From an uncultured Myxococcales bacterium (GTDB taxonomy: Bacteria; Myxococcota_A; Polyangia; Palsa-1104; JAEUJZ01), in contig CAZHYV010000004.1 in assembly GCA_964537055.1 (NCBI GenBank), positions 46,172 to 110,171 on the forward strand: a stretch of 64,000 nt of DNA, read 5' to 3'. Shown in pieces: positions 1-41,428 of the stretch. A program made the position numbers and the translations under genes. The notes under the pieces were generated by a model that saw only the letters and a program-made list of their open reading frames with translations, was not told the DNA's origin and did no database searches. Numbering within the stretch: position 1 is the stretch's first letter; every line of letters begins with the position of its first letter.

Positions 1-793
1 CTCGAATTCTATCGAGGTCGCTTTTAAGGAAGGCACCTCCTTTGGTGCGAAGTTAATAGCTGTAGACCAGACCCTTGATCTTGCATTACTTCAGCTTATG
101 GACATAAGAGATTTCAGATTAAAACCGGTAGTATGGGGAGACTCCGAAAGTCTGCGAGTTGGAGAGGGGGTCGTTGTCATCGGGCACCCCTTTGGAATGG
201 ATCAAACAGTCACGGTAGGAATTATTAGTGGTACCCACCGTACACTTCGATATCGATCGGGAATAAAAGAGCGCTCTATCATTTATCGAAACTTACTGCA
301 GACTGATTCATCAATTCATGCAGGAAATTCTGGTGGCCCCTGGTTCAATCTTTCAGGAGAAGTCATTGGGATTAGCACATTGCTTATGAACCCAGGTGGA
401 GGCAGCGGCGGGATTGGTTTTGCGATTCCTTCGAATGAAGCACAAACAAGCATACAGAGGATGATAACAGCAAGGAACATCATTTTTAGAGAGCTAGGTA
501 TAGTTATGGAGCCTTATACGCATCAAAGTCGAGAAATGCTAGAGAATAGAATAGGAAAAAAAGATCAAGGAGGAGTTATTGCTGAGATCAAACTTGGCAG
601 TGTAGCAGAGATAGCTGGGCTTCTGCCTAACGATGTTCTTCTTACTATAGAAGATCAATCTTTTTCTAATGAGAGTGAGCTAGCTAGGCTTATTATACAT
701 CGAGCTCAGAAAAACACTTTACGGATTGAGATTTTGCGTAGGGGACAAAGAGACCCCCAGGCTCTATCTGTAAAAATGAAAATGCTTCCTTAA
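1..793 (+). CDS. htrA: HtrA/DegP-family periplasmic serine protease, C-terminal part (trypsin domain end + PDZ); 5' end lies outside the window
   Basis: The reading frame is open from base 2 of the window. GNSGGP catalytic-Ser motif and a PDZ-like C-terminal region are present; ORF track 98..793 extends in frame to the window start. Confidence 0.85.
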   Translation, partial: SNSIEVAFKEGTSFGAKLIAVDQTLDLALLQLMDIRDFRLKPVVWGDSESLRVGEGVVVIGHPFGMDQTVTVGIISGTHRTLRYRSGIKERSIIYRNLLQTDSSIHAGNSGGPWFNLSGEVIGISTLLMNPGGGSGGIGFAIPSNEAQTSIQRMITARNIIFRELGIVMEPYTHQSREMLENRIGKKDQGGVIAEIKLGSVAEIAGLLPNDVLLTIEDQSFSNESELARLIIHRAQKNTLRIEILRRGQRDPQALSVKMKMLP

Positions 794-1185
794 GTTTTCT
801 TCGAAAGCTTTGGCTGTCTTGCTGATTGTGCTTTTAACGAAACATACCGGAACGTTTTTGAAAAAAATGTACTTTTGGAGTCTTTTTTCTTCTCTTCTAC
901 CACTGCAGAAACTTCTGAGAATCGATTAGGTTCCATCGATACGGTACTTACCCCTTCATTTTCTAAGTCTTGTTTAAGTAATTCCAAAAAATTAGAAGGA
1001 ATTCCTTCTGGTGGTTCATCTAAGATAGTTGGAATTTCCTTAATCGGCGTGCTAATGTTATCATTTCCAGAAATTTCATAGATGACTTTCCCCGCAGGTG
1101 TTTCAGACACTGGCGGCTCCGAACCACAGCCTGCAATAAGGAAGATAAAACTCATGCTCATCCAAATGTTGCTTTTCTTCCACAT
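790..1185 (-). CDS. small lipoprotein (signal peptide MWKKSNIWMSMSFIFLIAGC); N-terminal motif shared with the adjacent gene at 1778..2668
   Basis: ORF 790..1227 trimmed to the internal ATG at 1185, which is preceded by an AGGAGG Shine-Dalgarno. Lipobox LIAGC. The ISTPIKEIPTILDEPPEGIPSNFL motif is paralogous to the downstream protein. Confidence 0.6.
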   Translation of the reverse strand: MWKKSNIWMSMSFIFLIAGCGSEPPVSETPAGKVIYEISGNDNISTPIKEIPTILDEPPEGIPSNFLELLKQDLENEGVSTVSMEPNRFSEVSAVVEEKKKDSKSTFFSKTFRYVSLKAQSARQPKLSKKT

Positions 1186-1219
1186 AGTTCCTCCTATTTC
1201 ATGTTTCTCTTTGACAAGT

Positions 1220-1738
1220 TTACACAATGGGTTTCTCTAGCGTCTCACTAAAAGATTGTGCCATTTGCAGGGCTCGCTCCTCATTCCCCGCCTGGACGAG
1301 CAGTTGAGCATCTCGATCTGAACGAATCGCTTCCACCTCCCAAGAGGAAGAACCCCGCAATCGAGCCGTCCTTTGGACTCGTATTCCGGCTATCTTCTCT
1401 ACAGGAATTACTCGTTTCCACGGAAGAAAGAAAAATCGGTCTTGAATCTCAAGCAATCTTTTCTCTTTGTCGTAATAAATCTTTTGATTCATAAACCATA
1501 GGCTCAGAAAGAACAGAGATAATAGCTCTGCAAGTACCCATCCCACAGGCCGAGAAAAATTTCCATCCACTTTGACCTCAAAAAAAGGAAGCTGGACATA
1601 GATTCCATATCGATAAAGGATCTTCAGAATGAGGAGATAAGTTACCAAAATTGCAATCGGAAGAAAGAGGATTGCGATGAACCATGGAAATCGAGCAGAG
1701 TAAAGCAATTGGCGATTTGATTGATCGTGACTCTTCAT
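1220..1738 (-). CDS. membrane protein with two N-terminal TM helices and a bacterial PH-like (YdbS/YdbT-like) cytoplasmic domain
   Basis: Hydrophobic segments FPWFIAILFLPIAILVTYLLIL and VGWVLAELLSLFFLSLWF are followed by a soluble ~90 aa domain. The fold assignment is an inference. Confidence 0.5.
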   Translation of the reverse strand: MKSHDQSNRQLLYSARFPWFIAILFLPIAILVTYLLILKILYRYGIYVQLPFFEVKVDGNFSRPVGWVLAELLSLFFLSLWFMNQKIYYDKEKRLLEIQDRFFFLPWKRVIPVEKIAGIRVQRTARLRGSSSWEVEAIRSDRDAQLLVQAGNEERALQMAQSFSETLEKPIV

Positions 1739-1777
1739 ATGGCTAACACCTTATCTCCTAACCCTCATCTTAATGAC

Positions 1778-2668
1778 CTATGAATTTGGAATCCACCCAA
1801 TTTCGATAAAACCGCCAAAGCACCCTGAGCTTCCTGCATTGACAATCTCACCCTCACTACTTGGGCAGATATCATAGGACACATTCCCTTGTATACCCGC
1901 TTGTACCTTAGCGCCTACCTTATTTGCTAGCTGGTTGAGAGTAGCACCTACAGGAAGACGGCGCAGCAAATCGATAAAAACAATTCCTTCGAGAGACCCT
2001 TTGCATTTACTCGAAAGCCCACATACAAATCCTACGGAAAGTCCATTGATGATATCGAAACTAAACTTTTTGGCAGGAGAAAAGAACGCTACCCCAGCGA
2101 GAGAGAAGTCCTTATACCATTCCACTTGGCATTCTGGTGCGCAGGTGCCGTACTTTCCCCACTTAAGTCTAGAATCAGTCCAAATATGATAGGCATTGTC
2201 TTTAGGCCACTTTTGATACATAGATAGCCCATAAAATGAATCACCTTTATGATAGCCTAACCCTCCCCAGAGCCACCCTGTTAAGTCGATACTTCCTTTC
2301 TCAAAGTCAACACACAATTCAACGGAGGCTACCATTCCAAATTCAATTGGAATCCCCGATAAAGAACTAGCACTCGCTGAGGCCATAGAAACCCCATCTT
2401 TTTGAATGACCTTCTCTAACTGCTGAAGAAAGTCGGAGGGTATTCCGCTTGGAGGCTCATTTAGAATTTTAGGGATCCCCTTGATGGGTGTACTGATCTT
2501 ATTATTCCCTGTAACTTGAAAAACGATCCCTCTCAGAGGATCGGTCAAGGCCTGTTTCCTAAAAGGGTGTTGATTTCGGGGTTTCGAGCTTTCCTGTTGC
2601 CAAGAACACTGTAGAATTAAAAACCCTAAGATGAGAGTAGTAATCTTCACAGAAGAATTTTTGGCCAA
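1778..2668 (-). CDS. secreted/lipoprotein of unknown function (TTG start); paralogous N-terminal motif with 790..1185
   Basis: Signal peptide MAKNSSVKITTLILGFLILQC. The start codon is TTG with an AGGAGGG SD 6 nt upstream. Motif ISTPIKGIPKILNEPPSGIPSDFL. Confidence 0.6.
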   Translation of the reverse strand: MAKNSSVKITTLILGFLILQCSWQQESSKPRNQHPFRKQALTDPLRGIVFQVTGNNKISTPIKGIPKILNEPPSGIPSDFLQQLEKVIQKDGVSMASASASSLSGIPIEFGMVASVELCVDFEKGSIDLTGWLWGGLGYHKGDSFYGLSMYQKWPKDNAYHIWTDSRLKWGKYGTCAPECQVEWYKDFSLAGVAFFSPAKKFSFDIINGLSVGFVCGLSSKCKGSLEGIVFIDLLRRLPVGATLNQLANKVGAKVQAGIQGNVSYDICPSSEGEIVNAGSSGCFGGFIEIGWIPNS

Positions 2669-2927
2669 GGTACCCTCCTACCATTTTCTAAAAATCAATA
2701 ATAATTTAGGACCCTTGTCAAACTTTTATTTTCCTTTTTAGGTCTCGAAGAGTACAAAGAAAACTTGGGATTCGCTGAAATACTGGCTTCTTCTTAAACA
2801 TTTGGAGGGCTGGTACGGCAGAGCTTTGCTTTAAGCCACGAATCGTTCTCAACCACGCTTGCGCATTATGCGGCTCTAGGAGCCTGGGCGCAGCACCACC
2901 AAACAAGATTACTTTCACACCTACAAC

Positions 2928-3076
2928 AAGGAGGTGGGGCGCACTCTTTGCCCAATTGAATCGTTCCGTAAGGATTTTTCGAAGGATGTACCCGATCGGG
3001 CAAACATGCTAAGTGGTTGAAAATACTACCAAAAAAATCGGGGCGAGAGGATTTGAACTTCCGACCCCCAGTCTGG
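2928..3076. repeat. direct repeat copy A (~150 bp) including a 39-nt 3' remnant of tRNA-Pro (3038..3076)
   Basis: About 90% identical to 5656..5821. Contains ...tcggggcgagaggatttgaacttccgacccccagtctgg, the reverse complement of the tRNA acceptor/T-arm. Confidence 0.8.
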
Positions 3077-3298
3077 GGAATTCCGTTGAGAAATCTAAAA
3101 AGATTATTCCGTAGAATCAAGAGATACCTGCCTTTTTCATGACTTATCTACGGATTGATTCATCGGGATTCGGATTAGCTCAATTCATGATTGGAGTAAA
3201 ATTTACGATCTCACTTTTCTCTGTTAGTAAAAAGAAGGTACCTGCCCTATTTCGTTACTCAGGTTCCTTCTCAAGGGTTCTGTGGTATGGAGCAAAGA

Positions 3299-3682
3299 AT
3301 GGAAAAAATTCTCGTGAGTGCTTGCTTGTTAGGAGCGCCTGTTCGTTATAACGGAAAGGATGCTGCCATCGAAAGTCTCTTACTGGCTCGCTGGCAGCAA
3401 GAAGGACGCCTCCTTTCCTTGTGCCCCGAGCAACAAGGAGGCCTTAAAACCCCACGTCCCGCCGCAGAGATTCTGGGAGAAGACGGGAGAGCTGTCTTGC
3501 AGAGAAAAGCCAAGGTGGTCGACCAAGCACTTCAGGAGTATACGGATGCTTTCTTACAAGGAGCTTACGCAGCTCTAAGCGTCTGTCAACGACACCAAAT
3601 CAAAATCGCTATTTTGAAGACGGAACTTCAGGAGGCCGCCCACTGCCTCGATGTCCTTATAGCACAAGGCTCTTCGGGGTGA
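3299..3682 (+). CDS. DUF523 (YbbK-like) family protein
   Basis: N-terminus MEKILVSACLLGAPVRYNGKD is the typical DUF523 signature. The start is chosen at the ATG with a GGAG SD; the ORF could alternatively start at 3287. Confidence 0.6.
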   Translation: MEKILVSACLLGAPVRYNGKDAAIESLLLARWQQEGRLLSLCPEQQGGLKTPRPAAEILGEDGRAVLQRKAKVVDQALQEYTDAFLQGAYAALSVCQRHQIKIAILKTELQEAAHCLDVLIAQGSSG

Positions 3683-3808
3683 TTCCTTACGAGCAAACTG
3701 AAAACTTTTATCCCTAATAGGTAAACAAAGACCAATGAAACGACAACAAAAAGTCTGTTCTAACAAGCTAAAAGGGTCTGTTTCGCAGCTGCCAAATAGG
3801 TTCAAGCC

Positions 3809-4294
3809 ATGACCGCAAGTGAACTGGAGGGTCGAGTCCGTGCAGCCTGGACTAGCATCGCGGCACCTCCTGCAGAAGACATGAAGCTTATGGCGTGGGG
3901 TTGGGGAGAAGAGGCTGCGCGTGCGTTCATCGGAGTTGCTCCCATGGATGTTGATATACAGTCGCACGGATTTCACGCAGCAACACCGCTTTTTGATTTG
4001 CCACCGCGTGCAGCGGCAGCTTATCTTGGGACATATCTTCTATCGTTGATCCAGTCGCTGCAATTTCAAGAAGCGGTTGGCTTGTTCGATGATATCGTTA
4101 CCCGGGCACACATAATCACGTGCATGACGAATCTGCGATTCTGGCATAGGGTCGTACGTGGACAATTACCACTGAATTGTCAACAGGTGGTAGCTCATGT
4201 GGCGCGCTTCTTGGCGGCCCGCCAGGAGGCCCTAGCGCTAAAGCCCGAGCAAGTACAGACATTGCTCGAACTCGCAGATGGTTCCCAGCCATAG
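3809..4294 (+). CDS. hypothetical protein, Ala/Arg-rich, GC-rich ORF (likely horizontally acquired)
   Basis: A 161-aa ORF whose GC is clearly above the flanking genes. It matches no family I recognise. Confidence 0.4.
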   Translation: MTASELEGRVRAAWTSIAAPPAEDMKLMAWGWGEEAARAFIGVAPMDVDIQSHGFHAATPLFDLPPRAAAAYLGTYLLSLIQSLQFQEAVGLFDDIVTRAHIITCMTNLRFWHRVVRGQLPLNCQQVVAHVARFLAARQEALALKPEQVQTLLELADGSQP

Positions 4295-4457
4295 CCCAAA
4301 AAGGTGAATTTCAAAGGCTTCTGGTCCCCTAGCAAAATCGAAGCCGAAGGGAGCGCGTCTTTCTCATAAACCGCCCGACCCGCTTCCATAGGCTATTCAT
4401 CTACCCATTTCTGCTCCTTATTGACATCAATGCCAAAATACCGTACGTTTCCGCATC

Positions 4458-5615
4458 ATGCTGCAAAGATTATGTAAGCTCCCAGAGAAAAGGTCATTTT
4501 TCCTCTTTGGTGCCCGTCAAACCGGAAAAACCACCTTGGTCCGCTCTCTTTTATCCCCACAGGACTGGGCAATCGATCTATTAAAAAATGATACTTACTT
4601 CTCCTATAAAAAAGATCCTTCTCTCTTTCGTAGAGAAGCGGAAAAAAAGATAGCAAATCAGCCCTCTTTACGAATCATGATTGATGAGATTCAGAAAGTC
4701 CCTGAGCTTCTTTCTGAAGTACATTATCTCATTGAGCAATATCCCGGTATCCAATTTATGATGACGGGATCAAACGCTCGGAAGCTAAGAAGAGGCGCAG
4801 CAAACCTACTAGCAGGAAGAGCTTTCAGTAGAATGTTATTTCCGCTCACGTATCAAGAAACTGCCCCACAGTTCCACCTAGAAGACACCCTGCTCTACGG
4901 CTCTTTGCCCGCTGTTTTATCTTTATCTCCAACAGACAAACGAGATTTTTTAAGGGCTTATACTGACACCTATTTAAAAGAAGAAATCCAGGCTGAAGCT
5001 TTGGTTAGAAATCTAGGGGGATTTCATCGCTTCTTAGAAGTCGCCTCTGCTCAATGCGGTGAGACGATTAATTTTGCCTCCATTGCGAGAGAAAGCGGAA
5101 TTGCTTCGCGTACGATCCAAAGTTATTACGAAATTCTAGAAGACACATTGATCGGTTTTCGATTAGAGGCTTGGAGGAAGAGTGCTCGCAAACGACTTTT
5201 GGAACATCCAAAATTCTATCTTTTCGATACAGGGGTTACGAATGCTATCAATCATCGTTTAGAAGGAAGGCTAGACCCTGTCCAAAAAGGAAGGTTATTT
5301 GAACAATTTATTATTTTAGAAACGGTGAGGATGCTTTCTTATCAGCAAAGTGACATACGGGCTTATTATTGGAGAACCAACCATGGGGCTGAGGTAGATT
5401 TGGTCTTAGAAAAAAACAATGATCTGATTGCAGGGATTGAGATCAAATCATCTCGAGAGATTGCTAGAGCTGATCTGACCGGGCTTCGCTCCCTGAAAGA
5501 GGATTATCCCCATGCAAAATCGTTCATTGTTTCGCAGCTTCCGCACAGCTTCGACCTTGATTTTGCGACTGTATTGTCGTTTCAAGATTATTTTCAGTGG
5601 TTATTAACCCAATAG
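4458..5615 (+). CDS. AAA+ ATPase of the AAA_14 + DUF4143 family
   Basis: Walker A GARQTGKTTL near the N-terminus and a ~385 aa architecture typical of this family. Paralogous to 8488..9615. Confidence 0.8.
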   Translation: MLQRLCKLPEKRSFFLFGARQTGKTTLVRSLLSPQDWAIDLLKNDTYFSYKKDPSLFRREAEKKIANQPSLRIMIDEIQKVPELLSEVHYLIEQYPGIQFMMTGSNARKLRRGAANLLAGRAFSRMLFPLTYQETAPQFHLEDTLLYGSLPAVLSLSPTDKRDFLRAYTDTYLKEEIQAEALVRNLGGFHRFLEVASAQCGETINFASIARESGIASRTIQSYYEILEDTLIGFRLEAWRKSARKRLLEHPKFYLFDTGVTNAINHRLEGRLDPVQKGRLFEQFIILETVRMLSYQQSDIRAYYWRTNHGAEVDLVLEKNNDLIAGIEIKSSREIARADLTGLRSLKEDYPHAKSFIVSQLPHSFDLDFATVLSFQDYFQWLLTQ

Positions 5616-5655
5616 GAAATCTCTTGAACTTATACACTCTGTCTTCATTTTCCAA

Positions 5656-5821
5656 AGGAGGTGGGGCGCAATATTTGCCCAATTGAATCGTTCCGTAAAC
5701 GTTCCGTAAGGATTTTTCGAAGGATGTACCCGATCGGGCAAACATGCTAACTGCTTGAAATTGTTACTAAAAAATCGGGGCGAGAGGATTTGAACCTCCG
5801 ACCCCCAGACCCCCAGTCTGG
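5656..5821. repeat. direct repeat copy B (overlaps the 3' half of tRNA-Pro and ~120 bp downstream of it)
   Basis: Aligns with 2928..3076. Contains an internal cgttccgtaa duplication relative to copy A. Confidence 0.8.
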
Positions 5822-5849
5822 TGCGCTAACCAGGCTGCGCCACGCCCCG
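5775..5849 (-). tRNA. tRNA-Pro (anticodon GGG)
   Basis: Cloverleaf read by eye. Acceptor CGGGGCG/CGCCCCG, D-stem GCGC, anticodon stem CCAGA/TCTGG with loop CTGGGGG, T-arm GGAGG-TTCAAAT-CCTCT, discriminator A, no encoded CCA. Confidence 0.85.
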
Positions 5850-6080
5850 AAAAGTAAAGTGGTTTTATCAGCAATACGCTTTGCCGTCAAGGATTGTTCC
5901 ATAAGCCTCCAGAAAATCTAGCGTCCCCTTCCAGATACCCCTGTAGACTACCTCAAGGCCAGAGCATTCGTGAGTCAGCTGTTGCAAAACGCGCTTCCAG
6001 CCAGCGATGGCCCGTCCCCTTCTGGCCCTTTTCTTATAAAATTCATACCTTAGCCGCCAAGAATCTGCTATAACTCACGA

Positions 6081-7361
6081 ATGCGTTCGTCGCGAATTCC
6101 AGGGTTTTTCCAAATGCCGGCCGAGCTTAGGCGGAAAGAGATTGCCACACGCTGCAAGCTATCCCAAGAAGAAGTGGATCATCTTCTCATGACAGGCCTT
6201 GATTTTTCCACCGCAGACCGAATGACCGAAAATGTCGTTGGTCTATTTAAGCTTCCTCTTTCGATTGCTACCAATTTCCAAATCAATGGAAAAGACTACC
6301 TCATTCCTCTTTGCATCGAAGAACCCTCGGTGGTTGCCGCCGCCTCCAGAGCAGCCCTTTTGGTCCGAGAGGGTGGTGGCTTTTCGGCTACTTCCGACCC
6401 ACCTGTTATGATTGGACAGGTTCAACTACTCGAGGTAAAGGATACGAAAGCGGCCAAAGAATCGCTCCTTGCTAGGCAAGATGAACTTATTTCTCTTGGG
6501 AACCAGATGGTGCCTTCCCTGGTTCGTCGTGGGGGCGGCTTGCGAGGAATCGAAGTACGTATTCTCACAGAAAGCCCATCCCCTCCTCGTCAAGCTACAG
6601 AACCACATCTTTCCTTCTCTACGACCTCAACCACGAAAGCCTCATCCTCAGTCATCTCATCCACAAGAGCCCTATCTCCTGGACAAACATCTTCCGGCGA
6701 AATGGTGATCCATCTTCTGGTTGATTGCCAAGATGCGATGGGTGCCAATCTGACCAACCAAGTCGCAGAATCTTTGGCCCCAAGGCTTGCCGAGCTTTCG
6801 ATGGGTCGCGTGGGACTACGCATCCTATCGAATCTTTCAATCTATCGGAAAGTCCAAGCAAAGTGTACCATTCCTGTAAGCACGCTTGCCTATCAATCTT
6901 TCTCAGGCGAAGAAATGCGAGACCGTATCATTTCGGCAAGTGATTTTGCCAAAAAAGATCCCTTTCGAGCAGCCACCCACAACAAAGGAATTATGAACGG
7001 GGTAGATGCGCTAGTGATCGCGACGGGGAATGATTTCCGTGCCGTAGAAGCAGGCGCACATGCCTACGCATCACTCTCGGGGAACTACCAGCCACTCGCC
7101 ATTTGGAGTAAAAGCAAAGAAGGGCACTTACAGGGAGAGCTAGAGATGCCTCTCTCGCTTGGAACCAAAGGAGGAACCCTTGCCGCCAGAAGGGATGTAG
7201 CCTTGGTACTTAAAATTCTCGAAATAGAGTCCGCCCAAGAACTTTCTCAGGTGGCTGGATGTGTAGGCCTTGCCACCAACCTTTCTGCGCTCCGGGCTCT
7301 TTCCAGTGGGGGCATCCAAAAAGCCCATATGCCTCTCCATTACCGATCAATCGCAAAATAG
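6081..7361 (+). CDS. mvaA: class II (NAD(P)H-dependent) HMG-CoA reductase with a Ser/Thr-rich low-complexity insertion
   Basis: ENVVG, DAMGAN and GTKGG-type motifs are present. It is collinear with Pseudomonas mevalonii HMGR except for a ~40 aa S/T-rich insert before the DAMGAN block. Confidence 0.85.
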   Translation: MRSSRIPGFFQMPAELRRKEIATRCKLSQEEVDHLLMTGLDFSTADRMTENVVGLFKLPLSIATNFQINGKDYLIPLCIEEPSVVAAASRAALLVREGGGFSATSDPPVMIGQVQLLEVKDTKAAKESLLARQDELISLGNQMVPSLVRRGGGLRGIEVRILTESPSPPRQATEPHLSFSTTSTTKASSSVISSTRALSPGQTSSGEMVIHLLVDCQDAMGANLTNQVAESLAPRLAELSMGRVGLRILSNLSIYRKVQAKCTIPVSTLAYQSFSGEEMRDRIISASDFAKKDPFRAATHNKGIMNGVDALVIATGNDFRAVEAGAHAYASLSGNYQPLAIWSKSKEGHLQGELEMPLSLGTKGGTLAARRDVALVLKILEIESAQELSQVAGCVGLATNLSALRALSSGGIQKAHMPLHYRSIAK

Positions 7362-7475
7362 ATCTTTGGTCGTAAATTGAACCTATTGTAACCAGGTCAG
7401 CCTAAATAGATAACACAGAGTTAGCCCCTTTATTCTTTCCTCGACCCCAGATATAGGCTGTGATATGATAGACAG

Positions 7476-8480
7476 ATGGAGCTTCTCCCATCCCTGCCCG
7501 AAAGTCTTGTGGACCTACCTTTTCAACATATTCCCCTAGGTACCTTCTCGGGGCATCTGCCGTACTTAAATTTTAAGCACCTATCCTCTCGTCCTTGGCA
7601 GCGCTTCACCCATCAGAAACATTGGATGTTTTTATCACTCACCGCCGATCCCATCTTTATGGGGATCGCTATTGTAGATTTAAGCTATGCTACCAAGGCC
7701 TTTTTGTTTGTATACGACCAGCAGAAAATGTCTTTTCTTGTCCATTTTTCGAAAATGGGTCCTCCTCTGCTTGCAGGTGTGAAAGCAACCCCGACGTTCG
7801 ATCGGATGGCGTGGTTTCGTTTTGGAGGAGTGTTTTTGTGCTTGTACAGCAGTCTTAAAGAGGAACGCTATGAGCTTACAGTCCACGCACCCCATCTTTT
7901 GATCGAAGCAGAGCTTTCCGGTAGGGAAGCACCTGCACCATTGTCAGCGATAGGGACACATGGACCCGGTCTCCTTCATACTACAGAAAAGTCTGTCTTC
8001 CTGAACGCAACTGGACAGCTGAGAGTAAACGGAACGCTTCATTCCCTTAACCACGGTATCGCTGGTCTTGATTATACGCATGGATACCTGCCCCATCGGA
8101 TGGACTGGCGCTGGGCGTTTGCACAAGGCCATGCGAAGACAGGAGAATCCGTGGCTTTTAATATTGCCGACGGCTCCTTGGGTGAATCTGAATGTGCTCT
8201 TTGGATCAATCAGGAGCTTATCCCAATTTCAAAAGGGGAATTCCAATTCTCAAATCATACAAGCAAGACCCCTTGGAGGATTTCTTCTTTGCACAAGACG
8301 GTAGATCTTCTATTTTACCCTGAAGAGTTTCATAAGGAGAAAAACAATTATGTGTTTGTTTCCTCAGACTACATCCAAGGCATAGGTCGCTTTTCTGGAA
8401 GTATCTCTCTTCCAAACCGCCCCACCCTACTTATTGATAAACTCATCGGTGTCACCGAGGCTCAAAAGGTTAGCTGGTAA
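7476..8480 (+). CDS. hypothetical protein (possibly DUF2804-like)
   Basis: A 334-aa ORF with no recognisable catalytic motifs. The family guess is from memory only. Confidence 0.4.
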   Translation: MELLPSLPESLVDLPFQHIPLGTFSGHLPYLNFKHLSSRPWQRFTHQKHWMFLSLTADPIFMGIAIVDLSYATKAFLFVYDQQKMSFLVHFSKMGPPLLAGVKATPTFDRMAWFRFGGVFLCLYSSLKEERYELTVHAPHLLIEAELSGREAPAPLSAIGTHGPGLLHTTEKSVFLNATGQLRVNGTLHSLNHGIAGLDYTHGYLPHRMDWRWAFAQGHAKTGESVAFNIADGSLGESECALWINQELIPISKGEFQFSNHTSKTPWRISSLHKTVDLLFYPEEFHKEKNNYVFVSSDYIQGIGRFSGSISLPNRPTLLIDKLIGVTEAQKVSW

Positions 8481-8487
8481 GACTCCC

Positions 8488-9615
8488 TTACACCAGCTGC
8501 TGCAAAAACTTATATGCAGGACAAACACGAATTCCTTCCTTCGAAAGATAGTCTTTTTGCCCCATAAAAGAAATTTGCCAAGCTTCGCAATTGGGGAAAC
8601 GTGTTTTTAAATACAGAAGTCCTCTTCCAATGTCCGTATCATTCCATTTACAATCGATAAACCAAAGAGGCTTGCGGTTTTCCAGCACGACAAAATCAAC
8701 CTCCCGGCCATCTATATCACGGAAATATCGTAGCTCTACGTCCCTACCTTCTGCATCCTCTCGAAAATGCACCCATTTCAGTAAATGGGAAGCCACCATA
8801 TTCTCAAACCGCAATGAAGGCTCAGGAACTAAAGACCAATCAAAATGATAATGTTTTTGCTCCTTTTGAACAGCTCTTATCTTAGGCTGTAACTTCCCTC
8901 CCTGAAAAGGAAGCAGCCGAAAGATAGCATACAATCTTTCTAAAATACTTACCCATCGTGAAACAGTTTTATGGCTTGTCTGTAGATCTTCACGAAGAGA
9001 GTTAATGGATAAAGGGCTTCCCACCAGCTCAGGCAAACGTAGCGTAAGAAGTTCCATCTGTGATAAATCATTCACCCTCTCTAGGCTAGTAAGGTCTTCA
9101 TGGAGGAGACGATTTCGATACTCACGCGACCATCTCTTTGCTTCCATCTCAGATCCAATTAGAAAAGGCTCTGGAAAGCCTCCCAAAATAAGTAAATCAT
9201 TCAATTCTTTTTGAAGTGTCAGATTTAGCTCTTTAACTGAAAATGGATGCAGACGCAGATAATGATATCTCCCCTGAAGGGAGTCTCCACCAAACCGATA
9301 AAAGTCGAGACGAGCGCTTCCCATTACTAAAATTTGGTGTTTTTTATCATCGAGATCATAAGTACCCTTCAAATAACTTCGCCAGAGGCGATATTTATGA
9401 AGCTCATCAAAAACCCAAAGAGGCGATGGAGGAAATTGATGCTTCAAAATTCTTTCTCGATGGAGAGGAGAATCCCAGTTTAAATAACCCAAAGGCTCCT
9501 GTAAAAGCTGTTTTGCGATGGTCGTTTTCCCTACCTGCCTAGGTCCTCCTACAAACACCATCTTTCGTTTAAGATCAGCCTGAATTTGAGATTGGAGATA
9601 ACGTTCTTTTTTCAC
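8488..9615 (-). CDS. AAA+ ATPase of the AAA_14 + DUF4143 family (second paralogue)
   Basis: Walker A GGPRQVGKTT. Same architecture as 4458..5615. Confidence 0.8.
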   Translation of the reverse strand: MKKERYLQSQIQADLKRKMVFVGGPRQVGKTTIAKQLLQEPLGYLNWDSPLHRERILKHQFPPSPLWVFDELHKYRLWRSYLKGTYDLDDKKHQILVMGSARLDFYRFGGDSLQGRYHYLRLHPFSVKELNLTLQKELNDLLILGGFPEPFLIGSEMEAKRWSREYRNRLLHEDLTSLERVNDLSQMELLTLRLPELVGSPLSINSLREDLQTSHKTVSRWVSILERLYAIFRLLPFQGGKLQPKIRAVQKEQKHYHFDWSLVPEPSLRFENMVASHLLKWVHFREDAEGRDVELRYFRDIDGREVDFVVLENRKPLWFIDCKWNDTDIGRGLLYLKTRFPNCEAWQISFMGQKDYLSKEGIRVCPAYKFLQQLV

Positions 9616-9627
9616 ACAACAATATTA

Positions 9628-9688
9628 CGAGTTTTTTCACCCAGAGTCAAAATTACTCGCGAGTTTTTTCACCCAGAGTCAAAATTAC
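9628..9688. repeat. two perfect 29-bp tandem direct repeats (cgagttttttcacccagagtcaaaattac) separated by 3 bp, immediately upstream of the ATPase gene start at 9615
   Basis: Read directly from 9628..9656 and 9660..9688. Confidence 0.9.
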
Positions 9689-9892: not shown

Positions 9893-10951
9893 ATGATACG
9901 TGTTCTTGAACTAAATCGAGCAGTTGAAAATGCTCGTGTTGTGGAGTACCAAGACGCCCAAGCAGCGCTTTTCGCCCAAAGGCCTGATTCCCATATCCTA
10001 CGTTGGGTAGATATTACTGAGCAAACAAGCGAAGATATTGAACTTATTCGGAAAGGGTTTCAATTCCACCCCTTAACGCTTGAGGATTGCCTCCATTTCG
10101 ATCAACGTCCAAAGCTAGAGGAATTTCCCGGGAATCACCCCTATGTATTTATTGTCATTCATAATTTTAAGATATGCATGACAGGAGATACAACCCATTC
10201 TGACGAAGCTTTGACCCTCCCTCAAAGTAGCCATTCTTCTACCAAAGAAAAGTCTTTGCTTCGGATGCAAGAGGTGCATGCCTATTTGGGCCCGAATTAC
10301 CTCGTGACGGTACATCGCCATCCAATTGCTGAAATTGATGGATTATTTCAAAGGTTACGTTCTGATACCGGTCTTTTTCAAAGAGGATGCGATTTCCTTT
10401 ATTATCTTCTTGCCGACCAACTATGCGATAGCAATTTTCCCGTGCTCGAGCATCTTTCGGACGAACTCGATCAAATCGAGGAACTAGTGATCGCTTCTCC
10501 AGAAAAACGAGTGCTTACGTTAATTTACGATACTCGGAAAGTGCTGGTAAGGATGAGAAGAACGTTATCCCCGCAGCGCGATCTGATGGCGCTGTTAGCA
10601 CGTCATGGAGGTGGGACGTACATCCAGCCAAGCACAGCCCCCTATTTTCGCGACGTATATGACCACCTTGTTAGGATCAACGAAGCGATTGAATCAGGTC
10701 GCGACCTTTTAGGAAACTGTGTTGATGCATATATGTCTTCAGTAGGACAGCGCACCAACGATATTGTAAAGCAGCTCACCATTCTTTCGTCAGTGATGCT
10801 GCCATTGACATTTGTGGTAGGCTTTTTCGGCATGAATTTTGACGCACTGCCTTTTCATTCGCTCGGTTGGTTTGTATTTGTTTTACTGGTGATGATTTTG
10901 ATTTTGCCGACAGGCATGGTCTATTGGTTTCATCGGAAGAGATGGATATGA
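9893..10951 (+). CDS. corA: CorA-family Mg2+/Co2+ transporter
   Basis: C-terminal GMNF motif (FFGMNFDALP) followed by two TM helices. Confidence 0.85.
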   Translation: MIRVLELNRAVENARVVEYQDAQAALFAQRPDSHILRWVDITEQTSEDIELIRKGFQFHPLTLEDCLHFDQRPKLEEFPGNHPYVFIVIHNFKICMTGDTTHSDEALTLPQSSHSSTKEKSLLRMQEVHAYLGPNYLVTVHRHPIAEIDGLFQRLRSDTGLFQRGCDFLYYLLADQLCDSNFPVLEHLSDELDQIEELVIASPEKRVLTLIYDTRKVLVRMRRTLSPQRDLMALLARHGGGTYIQPSTAPYFRDVYDHLVRINEAIESGRDLLGNCVDAYMSSVGQRTNDIVKQLTILSSVMLPLTFVVGFFGMNFDALPFHSLGWFVFVLLVMILILPTGMVYWFHRKRWI

Positions 10952-11964: not shown

Positions 11965-12251
11965 CGAGATACATTCCTTTAGAAGTACCTTCTTTTAAAC
12001 GTGTTCTTACTAAGCGTATTCTTACCGTAACAACAGATTAAGTAGTTAGACTCTCATTGCAGGTCCTTATTCTTGTCGGAGAAAGTAGGAACATGTAGTC
12101 TGAAGTAATTACTTATCTCACGAATTTTCATACGATCTTTTACTTTTTTTCCTAACCAAAAATTTTTGTGTTAGGTTGCGCTCTCGTTAGGGCAGCAGAG
12201 AATACGTTTGCCCTTAATAACCCTGGTTGTAACTACCGTTTTGGAGATTTT

Positions 12252-13772
12252 ATGAAAACATATATTGCGCTTCTAGGAACCCTTCTTTTCCTTGCTTCTT
12301 GTAACTTTAGCATCCCGGCAAAGCCTTTTCCAGATCCAATGGATATGCCTCCCGTTGGAACACAAGATTTTAACGTAGCCAACATTGATACAAAATTCGG
12401 TGATACTAAAGGGGGAACGACCATCACCCTTACGGGCAAGGGGCTCACCCAAGATACCAAAGTGACGGTTGGCGATAAGGTAGCTGTGGTCAAAAGTGCA
12501 TCTGCAGACGGGACTAGCCTTCAATTCACTTTACCAGCAAGTCCAGGAACTGTGGGAAAGAAAACCATTACCCTCATGAACACAAAGGGTATGGTAGTCG
12601 AGTTAAAGGATGTGTTTACTTACTATTTAGGAAATATCTCTTTTACCAGTATGTCTTCAGCAGCAATTCTTAGTAGTACCTCTCCTTTGCATATTGCGGT
12701 AGCGAATCTTGATAATGACGCAAACAACATTCAAGATCTTGCCATTGTCAATATGGACAACCGAAACGTTGATATTCTGGTTGGGGACGGCCAAGGGAAC
12801 TTCAGCCTGAATCCAATCCTCCAGTTTAACTTTGGTGGTACTTACCATAATTTTTCTGCTACTGGAGATTTCAACAACGACGGTCTTACCGATTTAGCCA
12901 TTATCAGCCCAGGCGATAGTTTAATCGCGCTTGCCCAAAAACGTCCGGGAGCAACCAACGGTTTTGTTATTGAGGGAAACATAGGTTCTGGGAATATCCC
13001 AAATGCGATTGTTCTTGTGGATCTGGATGGAGATAACCGTCTTGACATTGCTGCAGCCAACACAGACACCACCAATATGAACCGTCTTAGCGTCTATCGT
13101 AATAATACTCCAGCCATGGGAGTCGTTACCTACCTTCCTCCCCAAAAACTTCCTCTGCCAACTGCCGTTTCCTCCCTCCTAGCAGCGGACCTGAACAAGG
13201 ATGGAAAAGTTGACTTGGTTGCTGCTTCCTCTACCAGCTTCCATGCCCTCCTTAACACAGGGATGGCCGCCACACTCTTTGCAGGCACTCCAGCGGACCA
13301 AGCTTTCTCAGGCTTTACTCCTCAGGCAGGGTTTTTTGCCCCTCTTTCGATGACCTCCTCATCTAACCAGATAGACCTTGCGTTTGTAGGAACGGATGGC
13401 ACCAACAAGACCATGGCTTTCTATGATAACACCTCTCCAGGGACCTCCCTTGCCTTTACCAAAAACACTGCCAGTGTGATGGTAGAGTCAGGCGTGGGAA
13501 ATCCGGCAAGCTCTCTAGCCATGGTTGATTTCAACAAAGATGGCTATAACGATTTTGTTGTCACCTCAGGTTCAACCATTCGGGTCTATCTTAGCAAAGC
13601 CTTAGAAGGAAAAGGCCTAGCTTTCGCAGATGCGATTGTATTCCAGACCGTAACACCTACGGTCCTAAGAGACATGAAATTGGTAGATACCAACGCAGAT
13701 GGATTAATGGATATCGTCACCATTTCTCGAAATGATGCAAAGGTCTACGTATTCCAAAATAGCTCAAACTAG
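12252..13772 (+). CDS. lipoprotein with an IPT/TIG domain followed by FG-GAP (integrin-alpha-like) repeats
   Basis: Start at the ATG with a GGAGA SD; lipobox LASC. DxNxDGxxD repeats: DFNNDGLTD, DLDGDNRLD, DLNKDGKVD, DFNKDGYND, DTNADGLMD. Confidence 0.75.
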   Translation: MKTYIALLGTLLFLASCNFSIPAKPFPDPMDMPPVGTQDFNVANIDTKFGDTKGGTTITLTGKGLTQDTKVTVGDKVAVVKSASADGTSLQFTLPASPGTVGKKTITLMNTKGMVVELKDVFTYYLGNISFTSMSSAAILSSTSPLHIAVANLDNDANNIQDLAIVNMDNRNVDILVGDGQGNFSLNPILQFNFGGTYHNFSATGDFNNDGLTDLAIISPGDSLIALAQKRPGATNGFVIEGNIGSGNIPNAIVLVDLDGDNRLDIAAANTDTTNMNRLSVYRNNTPAMGVVTYLPPQKLPLPTAVSSLLAADLNKDGKVDLVAASSTSFHALLNTGMAATLFAGTPADQAFSGFTPQAGFFAPLSMTSSSNQIDLAFVGTDGTNKTMAFYDNTSPGTSLAFTKNTASVMVESGVGNPASSLAMVDFNKDGYNDFVVTSGSTIRVYLSKALEGKGLAFADAIVFQTVTPTVLRDMKLVDTNADGLMDIVTISRNDAKVYVFQNSSN

Positions 13773-14067
13773 TCTTCCCCTCAAAAGCCGGCCTGATCGA
13801 AGGAAGGCCTGGTTGAGCGTTCTTTGCCTCATCTAGGCCTTCCCTTTTCGCCCTAACAGCCTACTATCTCCTACAAGCAGATTTCGTAATAACCTTTTAA
13901 GAAATTGGTGGCTTAGCTCTTCCTCAAGAAAAAACAAATTAGTCTGTATTTGCGCTTGAACCTGTGCTAAAATGAATAAACGTTTATCTTTCTAAAGCAC
14001 ATAGATAGACATGAAGCAAAAGAACGATCAAATGGTATCGTAGGTAATGAACGTAAAGGAGACAGTG

Positions 14068-15492: not shown

Positions 15493-15555
15493 GCAGGAAT
15501 ATGGGGAGATGCTCCGTTCACCCGCCCCTTTATCAAGTCCTAAGGACCCTCCCCG

Positions 15556-16611: not shown

Positions 16612-16745
16612 AAGCTAAACGTACTCCGGATTTGTAGATTCGGCAATGAAGAATCTTGCAAATTCTTCCTTCTCCATTAATTCTTGCAGGCCCAAAGAGC
16701 TTCTTCTATAATCTGTAAACCCTACACCAAGGCACAAAGAGGATC

Positions 16746-17924: not shown

Positions 17925-18087
17925 GCGTCTCTGAAAATACTTGATTCCGAAGGCTCTTAAGAATTGCTATCCCGTTTTTCTGCTGATCCTGTACGGTCCA
18001 TGTACGTTTCTGTCGTTGAGGTACGGCAGAATTACATATTATTTGTTTGTCTTGCATGCACGTTGTCACGCATGTTACGATAAGTAT

Positions 18088-19923: not shown

Positions 19924-19958
19924 AAGATAATTAATTAGTGATCACAGGAGAATTTTCC

Positions 19959-40442: not shown

Positions 40443-40480
40443 AAAATCCCCCACAGGCTTGCTCGCCTCCAAAGGGATCT

Positions 40481-41329: not shown

Positions 41330-41428
41330 AGGTCTTTTATAGCATGATTCCCGTCTTTGATTAAAAGAAAATTTTTCAAGGCTACAGCATACCTACGTGG
41401 CTGATCCTTCTCACAGCTTGGCTGTTGC

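What the first reader, a model, noticed from the sequence alone, without database searches (positions are those of the whole stretch)
4458..9615. Two paralogous AAA_14/DUF4143 ATPases bracketing tRNA-Pro, a lone class II HMG-CoA reductase and a hypothetical gene
The ATPases at 4458..5615 (+) and 8488..9615 (-) share the Walker-A-at-N-terminus architecture of the widespread but functionally uncharacterised DUF4143 family. They sit in inverted orientation around the tRNA, mvaA and 7476..8480. Such an arrangement resembles the boundaries of an acquired segment. It raises the possibility that the HMGR gene itself was laterally acquired together with these ATPases.
Basis: inference. Interest (0 to 1): 0.5.

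Follow-up and report, generated by a model that had tools for sequence, protein, structure and literature searches.

The report
Native HMGR beside tRNA-Pro insertion islets
The genes are real, but the HMG-CoA reductase looks native to this Myxococcota-like bacterium, whereas the two ATPases are unrelated copies of a common, untested "phage-defence candidate" family, one of them sitting in a small integrase-less insertion scar on the other side of the tRNA-Pro gene.

Summary
Two AAA_14/DUF4143 ATPases (4458-5615 +, 8488-9615 -) flank tRNA-Pro(GGG), a class II HMG-CoA reductase and a DUF2804 gene.

The ATPases are only 23% identical and share no DNA-level repeats. Both match PADLOC PDC-S01, an abundant and untested defence candidate (AAA+ ATPase fused to a PD-(D/E)xK nuclease). 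Their closest homologues (55-69% identity) lie in unrelated phyla, in unrelated contexts and on plasmids.

The HMGR behaves as native:
- It groups (NJ bootstrap 99/100) with the HMGR of the nearest genomic relative.
- That group nests inside an all-Myxococcota clade.
- Its divergence is ortholog-like (49%, against 43-62% for other shared proteins).
- Its composition is unremarkable.

The real insertion scar lies on the tRNA's 3' side. The tRNA 3' half plus a ~110-nt arm is repeated at 2928-3076 and 5655-5821. An ~80-nt inner arm plus remnant recurs about 0.6 kb left of the window. This fits two tandem, integrase-less, att-bounded islets (CIME-like accretion). The tRNA-proximal islet carries ATPase1. 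HMGR, DUF2804 and ATPase2 lie outside it.

The ATPases are best read as cargo, not boundaries. The finding is ordinary, with one tidy structural detail.

The parts
1..2927 (.). Cargo of the distal islet (islet 2). It holds an HtrA/DegP-like protease whose 5' end runs off the window (98-793 +), and three ORFs without family hits (790-1227 -, 1220-1738 -, 1778-2668 -).
   Evidence: Logan contig L180 equals window 2991..1 plus 618 nt further left. It ends in a third [inner arm + tRNA-Pro 3' remnant] copy. HtrA has the lowest GC3 in the window (0.336).
2928..3037 (-). Outer arm, copy A (P'-like arm). About 110 nt, repeated next to the intact tRNA.
   Evidence: 134 of 143 aligned positions match 5655-5808. 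A perfect 51-nt core (2962-3012 = 5700-5750) occurs exactly twice in the window, against 0 expected.
3038..3076 (-). tRNA-Pro 3' remnant A. It runs from the anticodon stem to the 3' end, with an 8-9 nt deletion in the variable region. It is not a functional tRNA.
   Evidence: It is not called by ARAGORN or by Rfam at E<=1.
3077..3156 (-). Inner arm J (P-like arm), about 80 nt. It is repeated next to remnant 0, left of the window.
   Evidence: window 3156..3035 against L180 3484-3609, 113 of 130 identical. There is a single copy inside the window.
3287..3682 (+). Decayed TudS/DUF523-like gene (2-thiouracil desulfurase family). It lacks the C-terminal third, including the SPSCG cysteine region.
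   Evidence: Pfam PF04463 4.5e-24, covering profile positions 1-99 of 141. Alignment to TudS 6z92 covers residues 3-99 of 166. No continuation is found in other frames.
3809..4294 (+). ORF of 161 aa with no family match and the highest GC in the window (54.5%).
   Evidence: The source annotation calls it as a gene.
4458..5615 (+). ATPase1: AAA_14 + DUF4143, PADLOC PDC-S01 type. It is the intact cargo of the tRNA-proximal islet.
   Evidence: (PDC-S01 7.6e-68). Walker A G18-T26, Walker B D76-E77, and nuclease-like E282 / E312-V-D314 / E328-x-K330.
5655..5774 (-). Outer arm, copy B, directly downstream of the intact tRNA.
5775..5850 (-). Intact tRNA-Pro(GGG), the integration target. Positions 5775-5821 form the repeated core.
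   Evidence: The same sublocation is used by tRNA-Pro fragments in IMG/VR contigs.
6081..7361 (+). Class II HMG-CoA reductase (mvaA). It is catalytically complete and has a lineage-specific Ser/Thr-rich loop insert of about 30 aa (about nt 6588-6690). It lies outside the repeat-bounded islets.
   Evidence: (E/K/D/H motifs conserved against 1qax).
7476..8480 (+). DUF2804 protein, function unknown. It sits 114 nt downstream of HMGR on the same strand.
   Evidence: It has no PDB sequence relative and is not linked to HMGR in 80 other loci.
8488..9615 (-). ATPase2: a second, distantly related AAA_14 + DUF4143 (PDC-S01 type) gene, convergent with DUF2804.
   Evidence: (1.4e-42).
9628..9688 (.). Perfect 29-nt tandem repeat (two copies, 3-nt spacer) just upstream of ATPase2. 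It contains a TTGACT -35-like hexamer.
   Evidence: It is also present in Logan contig L182.

Best explanation
This is an ordinary chromosomal neighbourhood of an uncultured Myxococcota-like bacterium. Its tRNA-Pro(GGG) gene has served as an integration site.

**HMGR (shown to be native; role inferred)**
The class II HMGR on the tRNA's 5' side is a native, vertically inherited gene. Its most likely role is the NAD(P)H-dependent reduction of HMG-CoA to mevalonate in the mevalonate pathway, which myxobacteria use.

**Islets on the tRNA's 3' side (repeats shown; mechanism inferred)**
Reading in the tRNA's sense direction, the DNA runs:
1. intact tRNA
2. outer arm
3. cargo 1 (ATPase1, orf3809, decayed TudS-like gene)
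4. inner arm
5. tRNA 3' remnant
6. outer arm
7. cargo 2 (three unknown ORFs and an HtrA-like protease)
8. inner arm
9. tRNA 3' remnant

This is the pattern expected when two related elements with the same attP integrate one after the other. Integration would be by tyrosine-recombinase crossover in the anticodon-stem-to-3'-end core of the tRNA. Neither islet encodes an integrase. They are therefore decayed elements, or elements mobilised in trans or in cis, and resemble CIMEs (cis-mobilizable elements).

**ATPases (family membership and motifs shown; activity inferred)**
ATPase1 is cargo of the tRNA-proximal islet. ATPase2 is an independent, distantly related member of the same family, lodged between DUF2804 and corA. 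Both belong to the PDC-S01 family: an AAA+ P-loop ATPase fused to a PD-(D/E)xK nuclease-like domain. They are predicted to be ATP-dependent nucleic-acid-targeting proteins, possibly anti-phage. That activity is inferred and untested.

The ATPases are cargo, not island boundaries. Their position on either side of tRNA-HMGR-DUF2804 has no demonstrated functional meaning.
For: **Host lineage**
The best named LepA hits are Myxococcales, Myxococcota and Polyangia MAGs at 75-80% identity.

**HMGR is native**
- The nearest long relative contig (ERZ922514, 180 kb) carries LepA at 86% identity and HMGR at 49%.
- Other shared proteins between the two genomes are 43-62% identical.
- In an NJ tree of 88 sequences, the window groups with P0022, P0096 and P0004 in 99 of 100 bootstraps. 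That group nests in a 24-member clade containing only Myxococcota.
- HMGR GC, GC3 and codon-usage z-scores all lie within +/-1.3.
- The catalytic motifs are intact.
- M. xanthus has the complete mevalonate pathway (PMC4266966).
- HMGR is also unlinked to other mevalonate-pathway genes in the relatives' loci L081 and L084.

**Islets**
- Repeats 2928-3076 and 5655-5821 match at 134 of 143 aligned positions and share a 51-nt perfect core.
- A third copy of inner arm plus remnant lies beyond the window's left end, 113 of 130 identical.
- The arm/remnant junction is the same in both remnant copies.
- IMG/VR contigs carry tRNA-Pro 3' fragments that break at the same sublocation.
- No integrase or phage function was found.
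- The CIME and accretion definitions come from PMC5704250 and PMC6323972.

**ATPases**
- Both hit PADLOC PDC-S01 and keep conserved Walker A/B and E...D...(E/D)xK motifs.
- DUF4143 is classed as PD-(D/E)xK (PMC3424549).
- PDC-S01 is described as an ATPase plus PD-(D/E)xK nuclease, abundant, transferred across domains, and with validation pending for most candidates of its class (PMC12988326).
- ATPase1's best named hits are Elusimicrobia, Deltaproteobacteria, Chlamydiae and Spirochaetes MAGs at 54-58%, in unrelated contexts.
- ATPase2 has 425 metagenomic relatives. The best 80 are 63-69% identical, and the 46 longer than 5 kb span GC 0.36-0.72.
- The family occurs on 312 and 234 plasmid records respectively.
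Against: - No integrase, no related intact element and no empty site were found. Site-specific integration is therefore inferred from repeat architecture alone.
- Composition does not mark either islet clearly.
- The HMGR tree is NJ only, and the four clustered sequences all sit on long branches, so long-branch attraction is possible.
- Taxonomy rests on a few named MAG hits.
- The source genome outside the window could not be read. The rest of the mevalonate pathway and the copy number of the ATPase family are therefore unknown.
- The third repeat copy comes from a Logan contig of the same sample. That contig ends 3 nt after the remnant, so what follows it is unknown.
- The exact HMGR protein is absent from the protein collection, while its neighbours from the same contig are present. 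A Logan contig also breaks inside DUF2804, at window position 8121. Both points are unexplained.
Confidence: 0.6

Rival explanations
1. The whole 4458-9615 block (ATPase1, tRNA-Pro, HMGR, DUF2804, ATPase2) is one laterally acquired segment, and the two ATPases are its ends.
For: - The ATPases converge around the block.
- The ATPase family is horizontally mobile.
- Synteny around HMGR is not conserved in two relatives.
- The ATPases are slightly AT-rich and HMGR slightly GC-rich relative to the window.
Against: - The ATPases are 23% identical and share no terminal DNA repeats.
- No recombinase is present.
- HMGR is phylogenetically Myxococcota-type and groups with the relative's copy at ortholog-like divergence.
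- No co-occurrence of HMGR or DUF2804 with these ATPases was found in 160 related loci.
- The actual repeat boundaries separate ATPase1 from HMGR.
Confidence: 0.05
2. The repeats are relics of local tandem duplication of the tRNA-Pro region, for example a former tRNA-Pro gene array followed by decay and a copied junction. On this view they are not site-specific integration scars, and the genes between them need not be foreign.
For: - No integrase and no related intact element were found.
- Composition is not clearly foreign.
- All copies lie within about 6.5 kb in one orientation.
Against: - The cargo between the repeats differs completely, which does not fit duplication of a whole segment.
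- Both remnants start at the same tRNA position, the anticodon stem. tRNA-Pro fragments in viral and proviral contigs break at or near that sublocation too.
- The alternation outer arm / cargo / inner arm / core is exactly the accretion pattern.
- ATPase1's nearest homologues are in other phyla.
Confidence: 0.15
3. The HMGR-DUF2804 stretch (about 5.8-8.1 kb) is a strain-variable or recombined segment, that is, allelic or xenologous replacement within the lineage. It would then be neither simply vertical nor part of the islets.
For: - HMGR sits on a long branch and has a unique Ser/Thr-rich insert of about 30 aa.
- The exact HMGR protein, or any relative at 90% or more, is missing from the 15-billion-protein collection, while flanking genes of the same contig are present. 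DUF2804 is present from NCBI only.
- The Logan contig of the same sample stops at window 8121, inside DUF2804, with no repeat there.
Against: - HMGR still groups with the relatives' HMGRs and has ordinary composition.
- DUF2804 is a single intact ORF across position 8121.
- Contig breaks in unitig assemblies have many trivial causes.
Confidence: 0.1
4. Assembly artefact. The order of the segments joined at the tRNA-derived repeats is a mis-join in the metagenome-assembled contig.
For: Repeats that contain conserved tRNA sequence are classic mis-assembly points. Independent Logan contigs break exactly there.
Against: - The repeat copies differ (94% identity plus indels). They are therefore resolvable by reads or by longer k-mers.
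- Each unique segment is reproduced at 100% identity in two samples.
- The arms are in register with the intact tRNA.
Confidence: 0.05

Closest known systems
PADLOC PDC-S01 (COG1373; Pfam AAA_14 PF13173 + DUF4143 PF13635), a single-gene phage-defence candidate
   Same: Both ATPases hit the PDC-S01 models strongly (7.6e-68 and 1.4e-42). They have the same N-terminal P-loop ATPase plus C-terminal PD-(D/E)xK-like architecture with conserved motifs. Like the family, they are standalone, patchily distributed across phyla and found on plasmids.
   Different: Nothing distinguishes them from ordinary members. No other defence genes were detected among the neighbours tested. The family's defence role has not been validated, so only family membership is shown, not the function.
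CIMEs (cis-mobilizable elements) and tandem accretion of integrative elements at tRNA genes (ICESt1-type model)
   Same: The units are bounded by att-like repeats that include the 3' end of the target tRNA. They lack integration and transfer genes and are arranged in tandem next to the intact tRNA. This matches the published definition.
   Different: - They are very small (about 2.6 and about 3.6 kb).
- They are in a Myxococcota-like MAG, not in Firmicutes.
- No parental ICE, IME or prophage with the same arms was found.
- Mobility is untested.
- The far end of the array lies outside the window.
Class II HMG-CoA reductase (Pseudomonas mevalonii MvaA, PDB 1qax; TIGR00532)
   Same: The alignment is full length (E 1.7e-101). 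The EEPS, THNKGIMNG, GND...VEAG and GIQ..H motifs, which hold the catalytic Glu, Lys, Asp and His, are conserved. The score is above the curated cutoff.
   Different: - It carries a Ser/Thr/Pro-rich loop insert of about 30 aa that is absent from 120 homologues.
- It is at most 52% identical to anything in 5.8 billion proteins.
- The 'degradative' label is a family name only. In a Myxococcota background a biosynthetic role is more likely, but this is an inference.
Classical tRNA-linked genomic island or prophage
   Same: An intact tRNA sits at one end and a direct repeat of the tRNA 3' part at the other. The core sublocation is the same as in proviral tRNA-Pro fragments.
   Different: There is no integrase and there are no phage or conjugation genes. 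There is no clear compositional signature.

Membership tests
AAA_14/DUF4143 (COG1373, PADLOC PDC-S01) | N-terminal AAA_14 P-loop domain with Walker A and Walker B | tested here: met
   Pfam hits are above cutoff in both proteins. G18, G23, K24, D76 and E77 are invariant in an 11-sequence alignment.
AAA_14/DUF4143 (COG1373, PADLOC PDC-S01) | C-terminal DUF4143 domain with a PD-(D/E)xK-type motif | tested here: met
   PF13635 scores 4.8e-35 and 7.7e-20. E282, E312-V-D314 and (E/D)-x-K330 are conserved. The family is classed as PD-(D/E)xK in PMC3424549.
AAA_14/DUF4143 (COG1373, PADLOC PDC-S01) | Match to the PADLOC PDC-S01 profile HMMs | tested here: met
   7.6e-68 (ATPase1) and 1.4e-42 (ATPase2) to PDLC04790, plus six further PDC-S01 models each.
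AAA_14/DUF4143 (COG1373, PADLOC PDC-S01) | Anti-phage activity, or embedding in a defence island | tested here: inconclusive
   The four neighbours tested have no PADLOC hit. The literature says validation is pending for most candidates of this class. Activity itself cannot be tested with these tools.
Class II HMG-CoA reductase | HMG-CoA_red domain scoring above the class II (TIGR00532) cutoff and below the class I cutoffs | tested here: met
   TIGR00532 scores 378.3 bits against 259.95. TIGR00533 scores 53.5 against 441.8.
Class II HMG-CoA reductase | Catalytic Glu, Lys, Asp and His (P. mevalonii E83, K267, D283, H381) | tested here: met
   The alignment to 1qax shows the motifs holding these residues conserved. 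The residue numbering is from my own knowledge of the enzyme.
Class II HMG-CoA reductase | Partner mevalonate-pathway genes in the genome (mvaS, mvk, pmk, mvd, idi) | not testable with these tools
   None is in the 64-kb window. The rest of the source genome could not be retrieved.
CIME / tandem accretion at a tRNA gene | attL and attR direct repeats that include the 3' end of the target gene | tested here: met
   Repeats 2928-3076 and 5655-5821, plus a third remnant copy in L180.
CIME / tandem accretion at a tRNA gene | Absence of integrase/excisionase and transfer genes inside the element | tested here: met
   Pfam, NCBIfam and PHROG scans of all ORFs between the repeats found no recombinase.
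CIME / tandem accretion at a tRNA gene | Descent from, or mobilisation by, an ICE, IME or prophage with the same att sites | tested here: inconclusive
   Exact-match scans of IMG/VR with both arm sequences found nothing. Genome collections could not be scanned again.
Classical tRNA-linked genomic island | Integrase gene adjacent to the tRNA | tested here: not met
   The gene next to the tRNA's 3' side is ATPase1. No integrase is present in 1-5655.
   The ATPases are 23% identical at protein level. No inverted repeat longer than 30 nt links them. No transposase domain was found.
DUF2804 (PF10974) | Full-length match to the family profile | tested here: met
   1.2e-38, residues 22-334 against profile positions 21-339 of 339.

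The most novel reading that the evidence does not exclude
The two islets could be members of a family of miniature (2.6-3.6 kb), integrase-less, att-bounded cassettes. A trans-acting tRNA-Pro-specific integrase would shuffle them in an uncultured Myxococcota lineage. This would be a minimal 'cassette array' at a tRNA gene, delivering single PDC-S01-type defence-candidate genes. It would be analogous in logic to integron cassettes, but built on tRNA att sites.
Probability: 0.12. Interest if true: 0.5.

Novelty: new member of a known kind. Interest (0 to 1): 0.22.

Why it matters
The analysis removes a tempting but unsupported horizontal-transfer story for a mevalonate-pathway gene. It also shows where the real insertion scars are.

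For annotation:
- Both 'DUF4143 ATPases' should be labelled as PDC-S01-type ATPase-nuclease candidates.
- The tRNA-Pro remnant and arm repeats should be recorded as att-like sites.

If the accretion reading holds, the locus is a compact example of how single defence-candidate genes settle at tRNA hot spots in a poorly sampled Myxococcota lineage. That makes it a convenient construct for testing whether PDC-S01 proteins actually defend against phage. It does not open a new kind of biology.

Tried and rejected
- **Composition.** GC, GC3 and codon usage gave no clear island signal for any gene in 4458-9615.
- **Promoter and terminator scans.** Counts were at shuffle level.
- **Rfam.** At E<=1 over 2600-6100, only the tRNA was found.
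- **Folding of the ~110-nt arm.** z-scores were -0.1 to -1.6, so there is no convincing structured RNA.
- **DUF2804.**
  - No PDB sequence relative.
  - No weak Pfam clan hits.
  - No close JGI relatives.
  - The single-sequence AlphaFold model had pLDDT 31, so no fold search was run.
  - The one paper found only places a P. aeruginosa homologue (PA3342) among GliR-activated genes in a study of glycerolipid-metabolism regulation.
- **IMG/VR scans with both arm sequences.** No hits.
- **A conserved two-ATPase module.** Second paralogues occur near ATPase homologues in L087, L105, L118 and L151/L152, but with varying orientation and spacing. I rejected a fixed module.
- **An association of the ATPases with tRNAs in general.** Only 2 of 38 ATPase2-relative loci, and 0 of 3 ATPase1-relative loci (L085-L087), have any tRNA within the fetched flank.
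- **PHROG scan.** No phage functions were found.

Full report
**1. What is in the sequence**

- ATPase1: 385 aa, 4458-5615 (+), with AAA_14 (8.7e-23) and DUF4143 (4.8e-35).
- tRNA-Pro(GGG): 5774-5850 (-).
- HMG-CoA reductase: 426 aa, 6081-7361 (+), PF00368 7.6e-99. TIGR00532 (the class II 'degradative' equivalog) scores 378 bits against a cutoff of 260.
- DUF2804 protein: 334 aa, 7476-8480 (+), 1.2e-38.
- ATPase2: 375 aa, 8488-9615 (-), with AAA_14 (4.5e-21) and DUF4143 (7.7e-20).

The two ATPases are only 23% identical (E 3e-12). They are the only members of the family in the 64-kb window. No other mevalonate-pathway gene is in the window.

**2. Whose genome this is**

The window is ordinary bacterial chromosome. 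It carries lepA, lepB, tsaE, gltX, pheST, mutS2, hprK, ptsI, rseP, holB and corA, together with FG-GAP/TIG, LRR and WD40 proteins.

LepA has its own 100% copy in the protein collection, on a 251,739-bp NCBI/Logan contig. The next hits are 87%, 86% and 81%. The best named hits are Myxococcales, Myxococcota and Polyangia MAGs at 75-80%. I therefore treat the host as an uncultured Myxococcota-like lineage. Its GC is 46%.

**3. Is HMGR foreign?**

The best HMGR match is only 52% among 5.8 billion proteins and 50% among GTDB species representatives. The top named hits are Polyangia/Myxococcales and Anaerolineae.

This low identity is what the lineage's isolation predicts.
- The closest relative with a long contig is ENA ERZ922514 k127_246718 (180 kb). 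It carries LepA at 86% and HMGR (P0022) at 49% on the same contig.
- The other proteins I could compare between the two genomes are 62% (2-hydroxyacid dehydrogenase), 49% (TsaE) and 43% (LepB) identical.

In a distance tree of 88 HMGRs, the window sequence groups with P0022, P0096 and P0004 in 99 of 100 bootstraps. That group sits inside a 24-member clade made only of Myxococcota sequences, including Pendulispora and Sandaracinus (earlier versions).

HMGR composition is unremarkable: z(GC) +1.3, z(GC3) +0.4 and z(codon log-likelihood) -1.3. The motifs holding the catalytic residues align to P. mevalonii HMGR. The one oddity is a Ser/Thr/Pro-rich loop insert of about 30 aa, absent from 120 homologues.

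In both relatives whose context I could read (L081, L084), HMGR is likewise unlinked to other mevalonate genes. It also has no tRNA, DUF2804 or AAA_14 gene nearby. In L081 a 2-hydroxyacid dehydrogenase lies downstream in the same relative orientation as in the window. That is a weak trace of shared backbone.

Myxococcus xanthus is reported to have the complete mevalonate pathway (PMC4266966; see also PMC10152446). A native biosynthetic HMGR is therefore the economical reading. The rest of the pathway could not be checked.

**4. What the ATPases are**

Both proteins hit the PADLOC PDC-S01 models (7.6e-68 and 1.4e-42). DUF4143/COG1373 is classed in the PD-(D/E)xK superfamily (PMC3424549).

A 2026 survey (PMC12988326) describes PDC-S01 in these terms:
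- It is among the most common 'defence' calls in prokaryotes.
- It is an ATPase fused to a PD-(D/E)xK domain.
- It has been repeatedly transferred across domains.

In an alignment with nine homologues, Walker A (G18, G23, K24), Walker B (D76-E77) and a C-terminal E...EVD...(E/D)xK motif are conserved in both window proteins.

ATPase1's homologues, after its own copy, are 66% and 62% identical, followed by more than 100 proteins at 52-58%. Those with names come from Elusimicrobia, Deltaproteobacteria, Chlamydiae and Spirochaetes MAGs. Their contexts are unrelated housekeeping genes.

ATPase2 has 6,679 cluster representatives at E<=1e-3, the best at 65%, 59% and 59%. It also has 425 confirmed JGI metagenome relatives, and the best 80 are 63-69% identical. 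Of those 80 loci, the 46 longer than 5 kb span GC 0.36-0.72. None of the 80 carries HMGR, DUF2804, corA or holB.

These cross-lineage identities match or exceed those of the other proteins I could compare between the window and its nearest relative (43-62%, apart from LepA). That points to horizontal spread, or to very strong conservation, of the ATPases. The family also occurs on 312 and 234 plasmid records, many of them conjugative.

A second, divergent paralogue lies within 5 kb in L087, L105, L118 and L151/L152, with variable orientation. Loose clustering of family members is therefore recurrent, but there is no fixed two-gene module. tRNAs are not generally nearby.

**5. Where the real scars are**

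A repeat search found that 2928-3076 and 5655-5821 are direct repeats. They match at 134 of 143 aligned positions, have two indels, and share a perfect 51-nt core that occurs exactly twice in the window.

Each repeat has two parts:
- about 40-47 nt of the 3' part of tRNA-Pro, from the anticodon stem to the discriminator base;
- about 110 nt of sequence immediately downstream of the tRNA.

Copy A is not a tRNA by ARAGORN or Rfam.

Logan contigs from the same samples break exactly at these repeats. L178 equals window 2983-5729. L180 equals window 2991..1 and then continues 618 nt past the window's left end. L180 ends in a third copy: an ~80-nt 'inner arm' plus the tRNA-Pro 3' remnant. This copy matches window 3156..3035 at 113 of 130 positions and has the identical arm/remnant junction.

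Reading in the tRNA's sense direction, the order is:
1. intact tRNA (5850-5775)
2. outer arm (5774-5655)
3. ATPase1, orf3809 and a TudS-like gene
4. inner arm (3156-3077)
5. remnant A (3076-3038)
6. outer arm (3037-2928)
7. three unknown ORFs and an HtrA-like protease
8. inner arm
9. remnant 0

This is the B-C-P'...P-C-P'...P-C pattern expected from successive site-specific integration of two related elements into a tRNA gene. The literature calls this tandem accretion. Units that keep attL and attR but have no integration or transfer genes are called CIMEs (PMC5704250 and PMC6323972).

No recombinase or phage function was found in either unit. The TudS-like gene lacks its C-terminal third, which is consistent with decay.

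Independently, 5 of 9 IMG/VR contigs that share the tRNA-Pro 3' 32-mer carry only a fragment that starts at or near the anticodon loop. The same sublocation is therefore used as an att core elsewhere.

HMGR, DUF2804 and ATPase2 lie on the 5' side of the tRNA, outside this array.

**6. Mechanism, and what is shown versus inferred**

Shown:
- domain content and motif conservation;
- the repeat architecture;
- the phylogenetic placement of HMGR (NJ level);
- the absence of recombinases;
- the lack of linkage between HMGR and the ATPases elsewhere.

Inferred:
- that a tyrosine recombinase acting on the tRNA-Pro core produced the repeats;
- that the islets are decayed or trans-mobilised elements;
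- that the ATPases are ATP-dependent nucleic-acid-targeting (possibly anti-phage) proteins;
- that HMGR works biosynthetically.

DUF2804 stays uncharacterised. It has no PDB relative and no usable model, and it is not linked to HMGR in 80 other loci. The only literature link is a P. aeruginosa homologue (PA3342) among the genes activated by the regulator GliR, in a study of glycerolipid-metabolism regulation.

**7. Loose ends**

- The exact HMGR protein, or any relative at 90% or more, is missing from the protein collection. DUF2804, CorA, orf3809, RseP and LepB of the same contig are present.
- The Logan contig carrying ATPase2 stops at window 8121, inside DUF2804, with no repeat there.
- These two points may reflect annotation or assembly trivia, or strain heterogeneity across HMGR-DUF2804. 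I list that as a minor rival.

**8. Verdict**

It is wrong about the boundaries and about HMGR.

The locus holds a new member of each of three known kinds: PDC-S01 candidates, a class II HMGR, and tRNA-linked decayed islets. Interest is low to modest.

Noticed in passing
window 9628-9688: A perfect 29-nt tandem repeat (CGAGTTTTTTCACCCAGAGTCAAAATTAC, two copies, 3-nt spacer) lies 13 nt upstream of the ATPase2 start. On the gene's strand it contains a TTGACT-17-TAATAT promoter-like site. It is reproduced in Logan contig L182. It could be a duplicated promoter or operator.
   Followed up: partly
window ~6588-6690 (HMGR residues ~170-203): A Ser/Thr/Pro-rich low-complexity insert of about 30 aa sits in a variable surface loop of HMGR. 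It is absent from all 120 closest homologues and from P. mevalonii HMGR.
   Followed up: partly
window 6081-7361 and 8121: The exact HMGR protein, or any relative at 90% or more, is absent from the 15-billion-protein collection, although neighbouring genes of the same 251,739-bp contig are present. DUF2804 is present from NCBI only. A Logan contig from the same sample ends at 8121, inside DUF2804. Possible causes are strain heterogeneity or an annotation quirk. Unexplained.
   Followed up: partly
window 3287-3682: A TudS/DUF523-like (2-thiouracil desulfurase) ORF matches only the first ~100 of ~141-166 residues of the family and lacks the SPSCG cysteine region. It is probably a decayed gene.
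   Followed up: yes
window 45498-46481: A BtrH_N/DUF4872 gene sits between lepA and lepB. In the closest relative (L082), lepA, lepB and tsaE are directly adjacent, so this is a ~1.5-kb insertion relative to that genome.
   Followed up: partly
window 1778-2668 (-) and 949-1098 (-): The unknown 296-aa ORF shares a 50-aa stretch (50% identity) with the neighbouring small ORF at 790-1227. This is a repeated domain of unknown nature inside the distal islet.
   Followed up: no
window 10867-10951: The longest holB ORF (TTG start at 10867) overlaps corA by 85 nt. The Logan gene call gives 338 aa rather than 365 aa, so the real start is probably about 80 nt further downstream.
   Followed up: partly
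window 12168-21260 and 38370-43462: There are clusters of secreted-type repeat proteins. Four are FG-GAP proteins (two of them also with TIG domains) and two are LRR proteins. A WD40 protein and a TSP3-repeat ORF lie elsewhere in the window. The LRR genes are the most AT-rich in the window (GC 0.38-0.42).
   Followed up: no
L089 (IMG/VR UViG_3300032053_000873), 7629-7705 and 8000-8031: A viral contig carries an intact tRNA-Pro(TGG) and, about 300 nt away, a separate tRNA-Pro 3' fragment. This is an att-type duplication like the one in the window. L090, L091, L094 and L095 carry fragments only.
   Followed up: partly
L118 8001-10352; L105 6556-9113; L151 5970-11930; L087 3538-9158: Pairs of divergent AAA_14/DUF4143 paralogues lie within 0.2-4 kb of each other in unrelated metagenomic contigs, in convergent, divergent or tandem orientation. 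Members of this family tend to co-localise.
   Followed up: partly
window 2947-3006 (and 5674-5744): The repeated outer arm contains an imperfect inverted repeat (TTTGCCCAATTG ... CGATCGGGCAAA). Its folding z-score is only -1.5. It could be a recombinase or accessory-protein binding site, or a terminator.
   Followed up: partly
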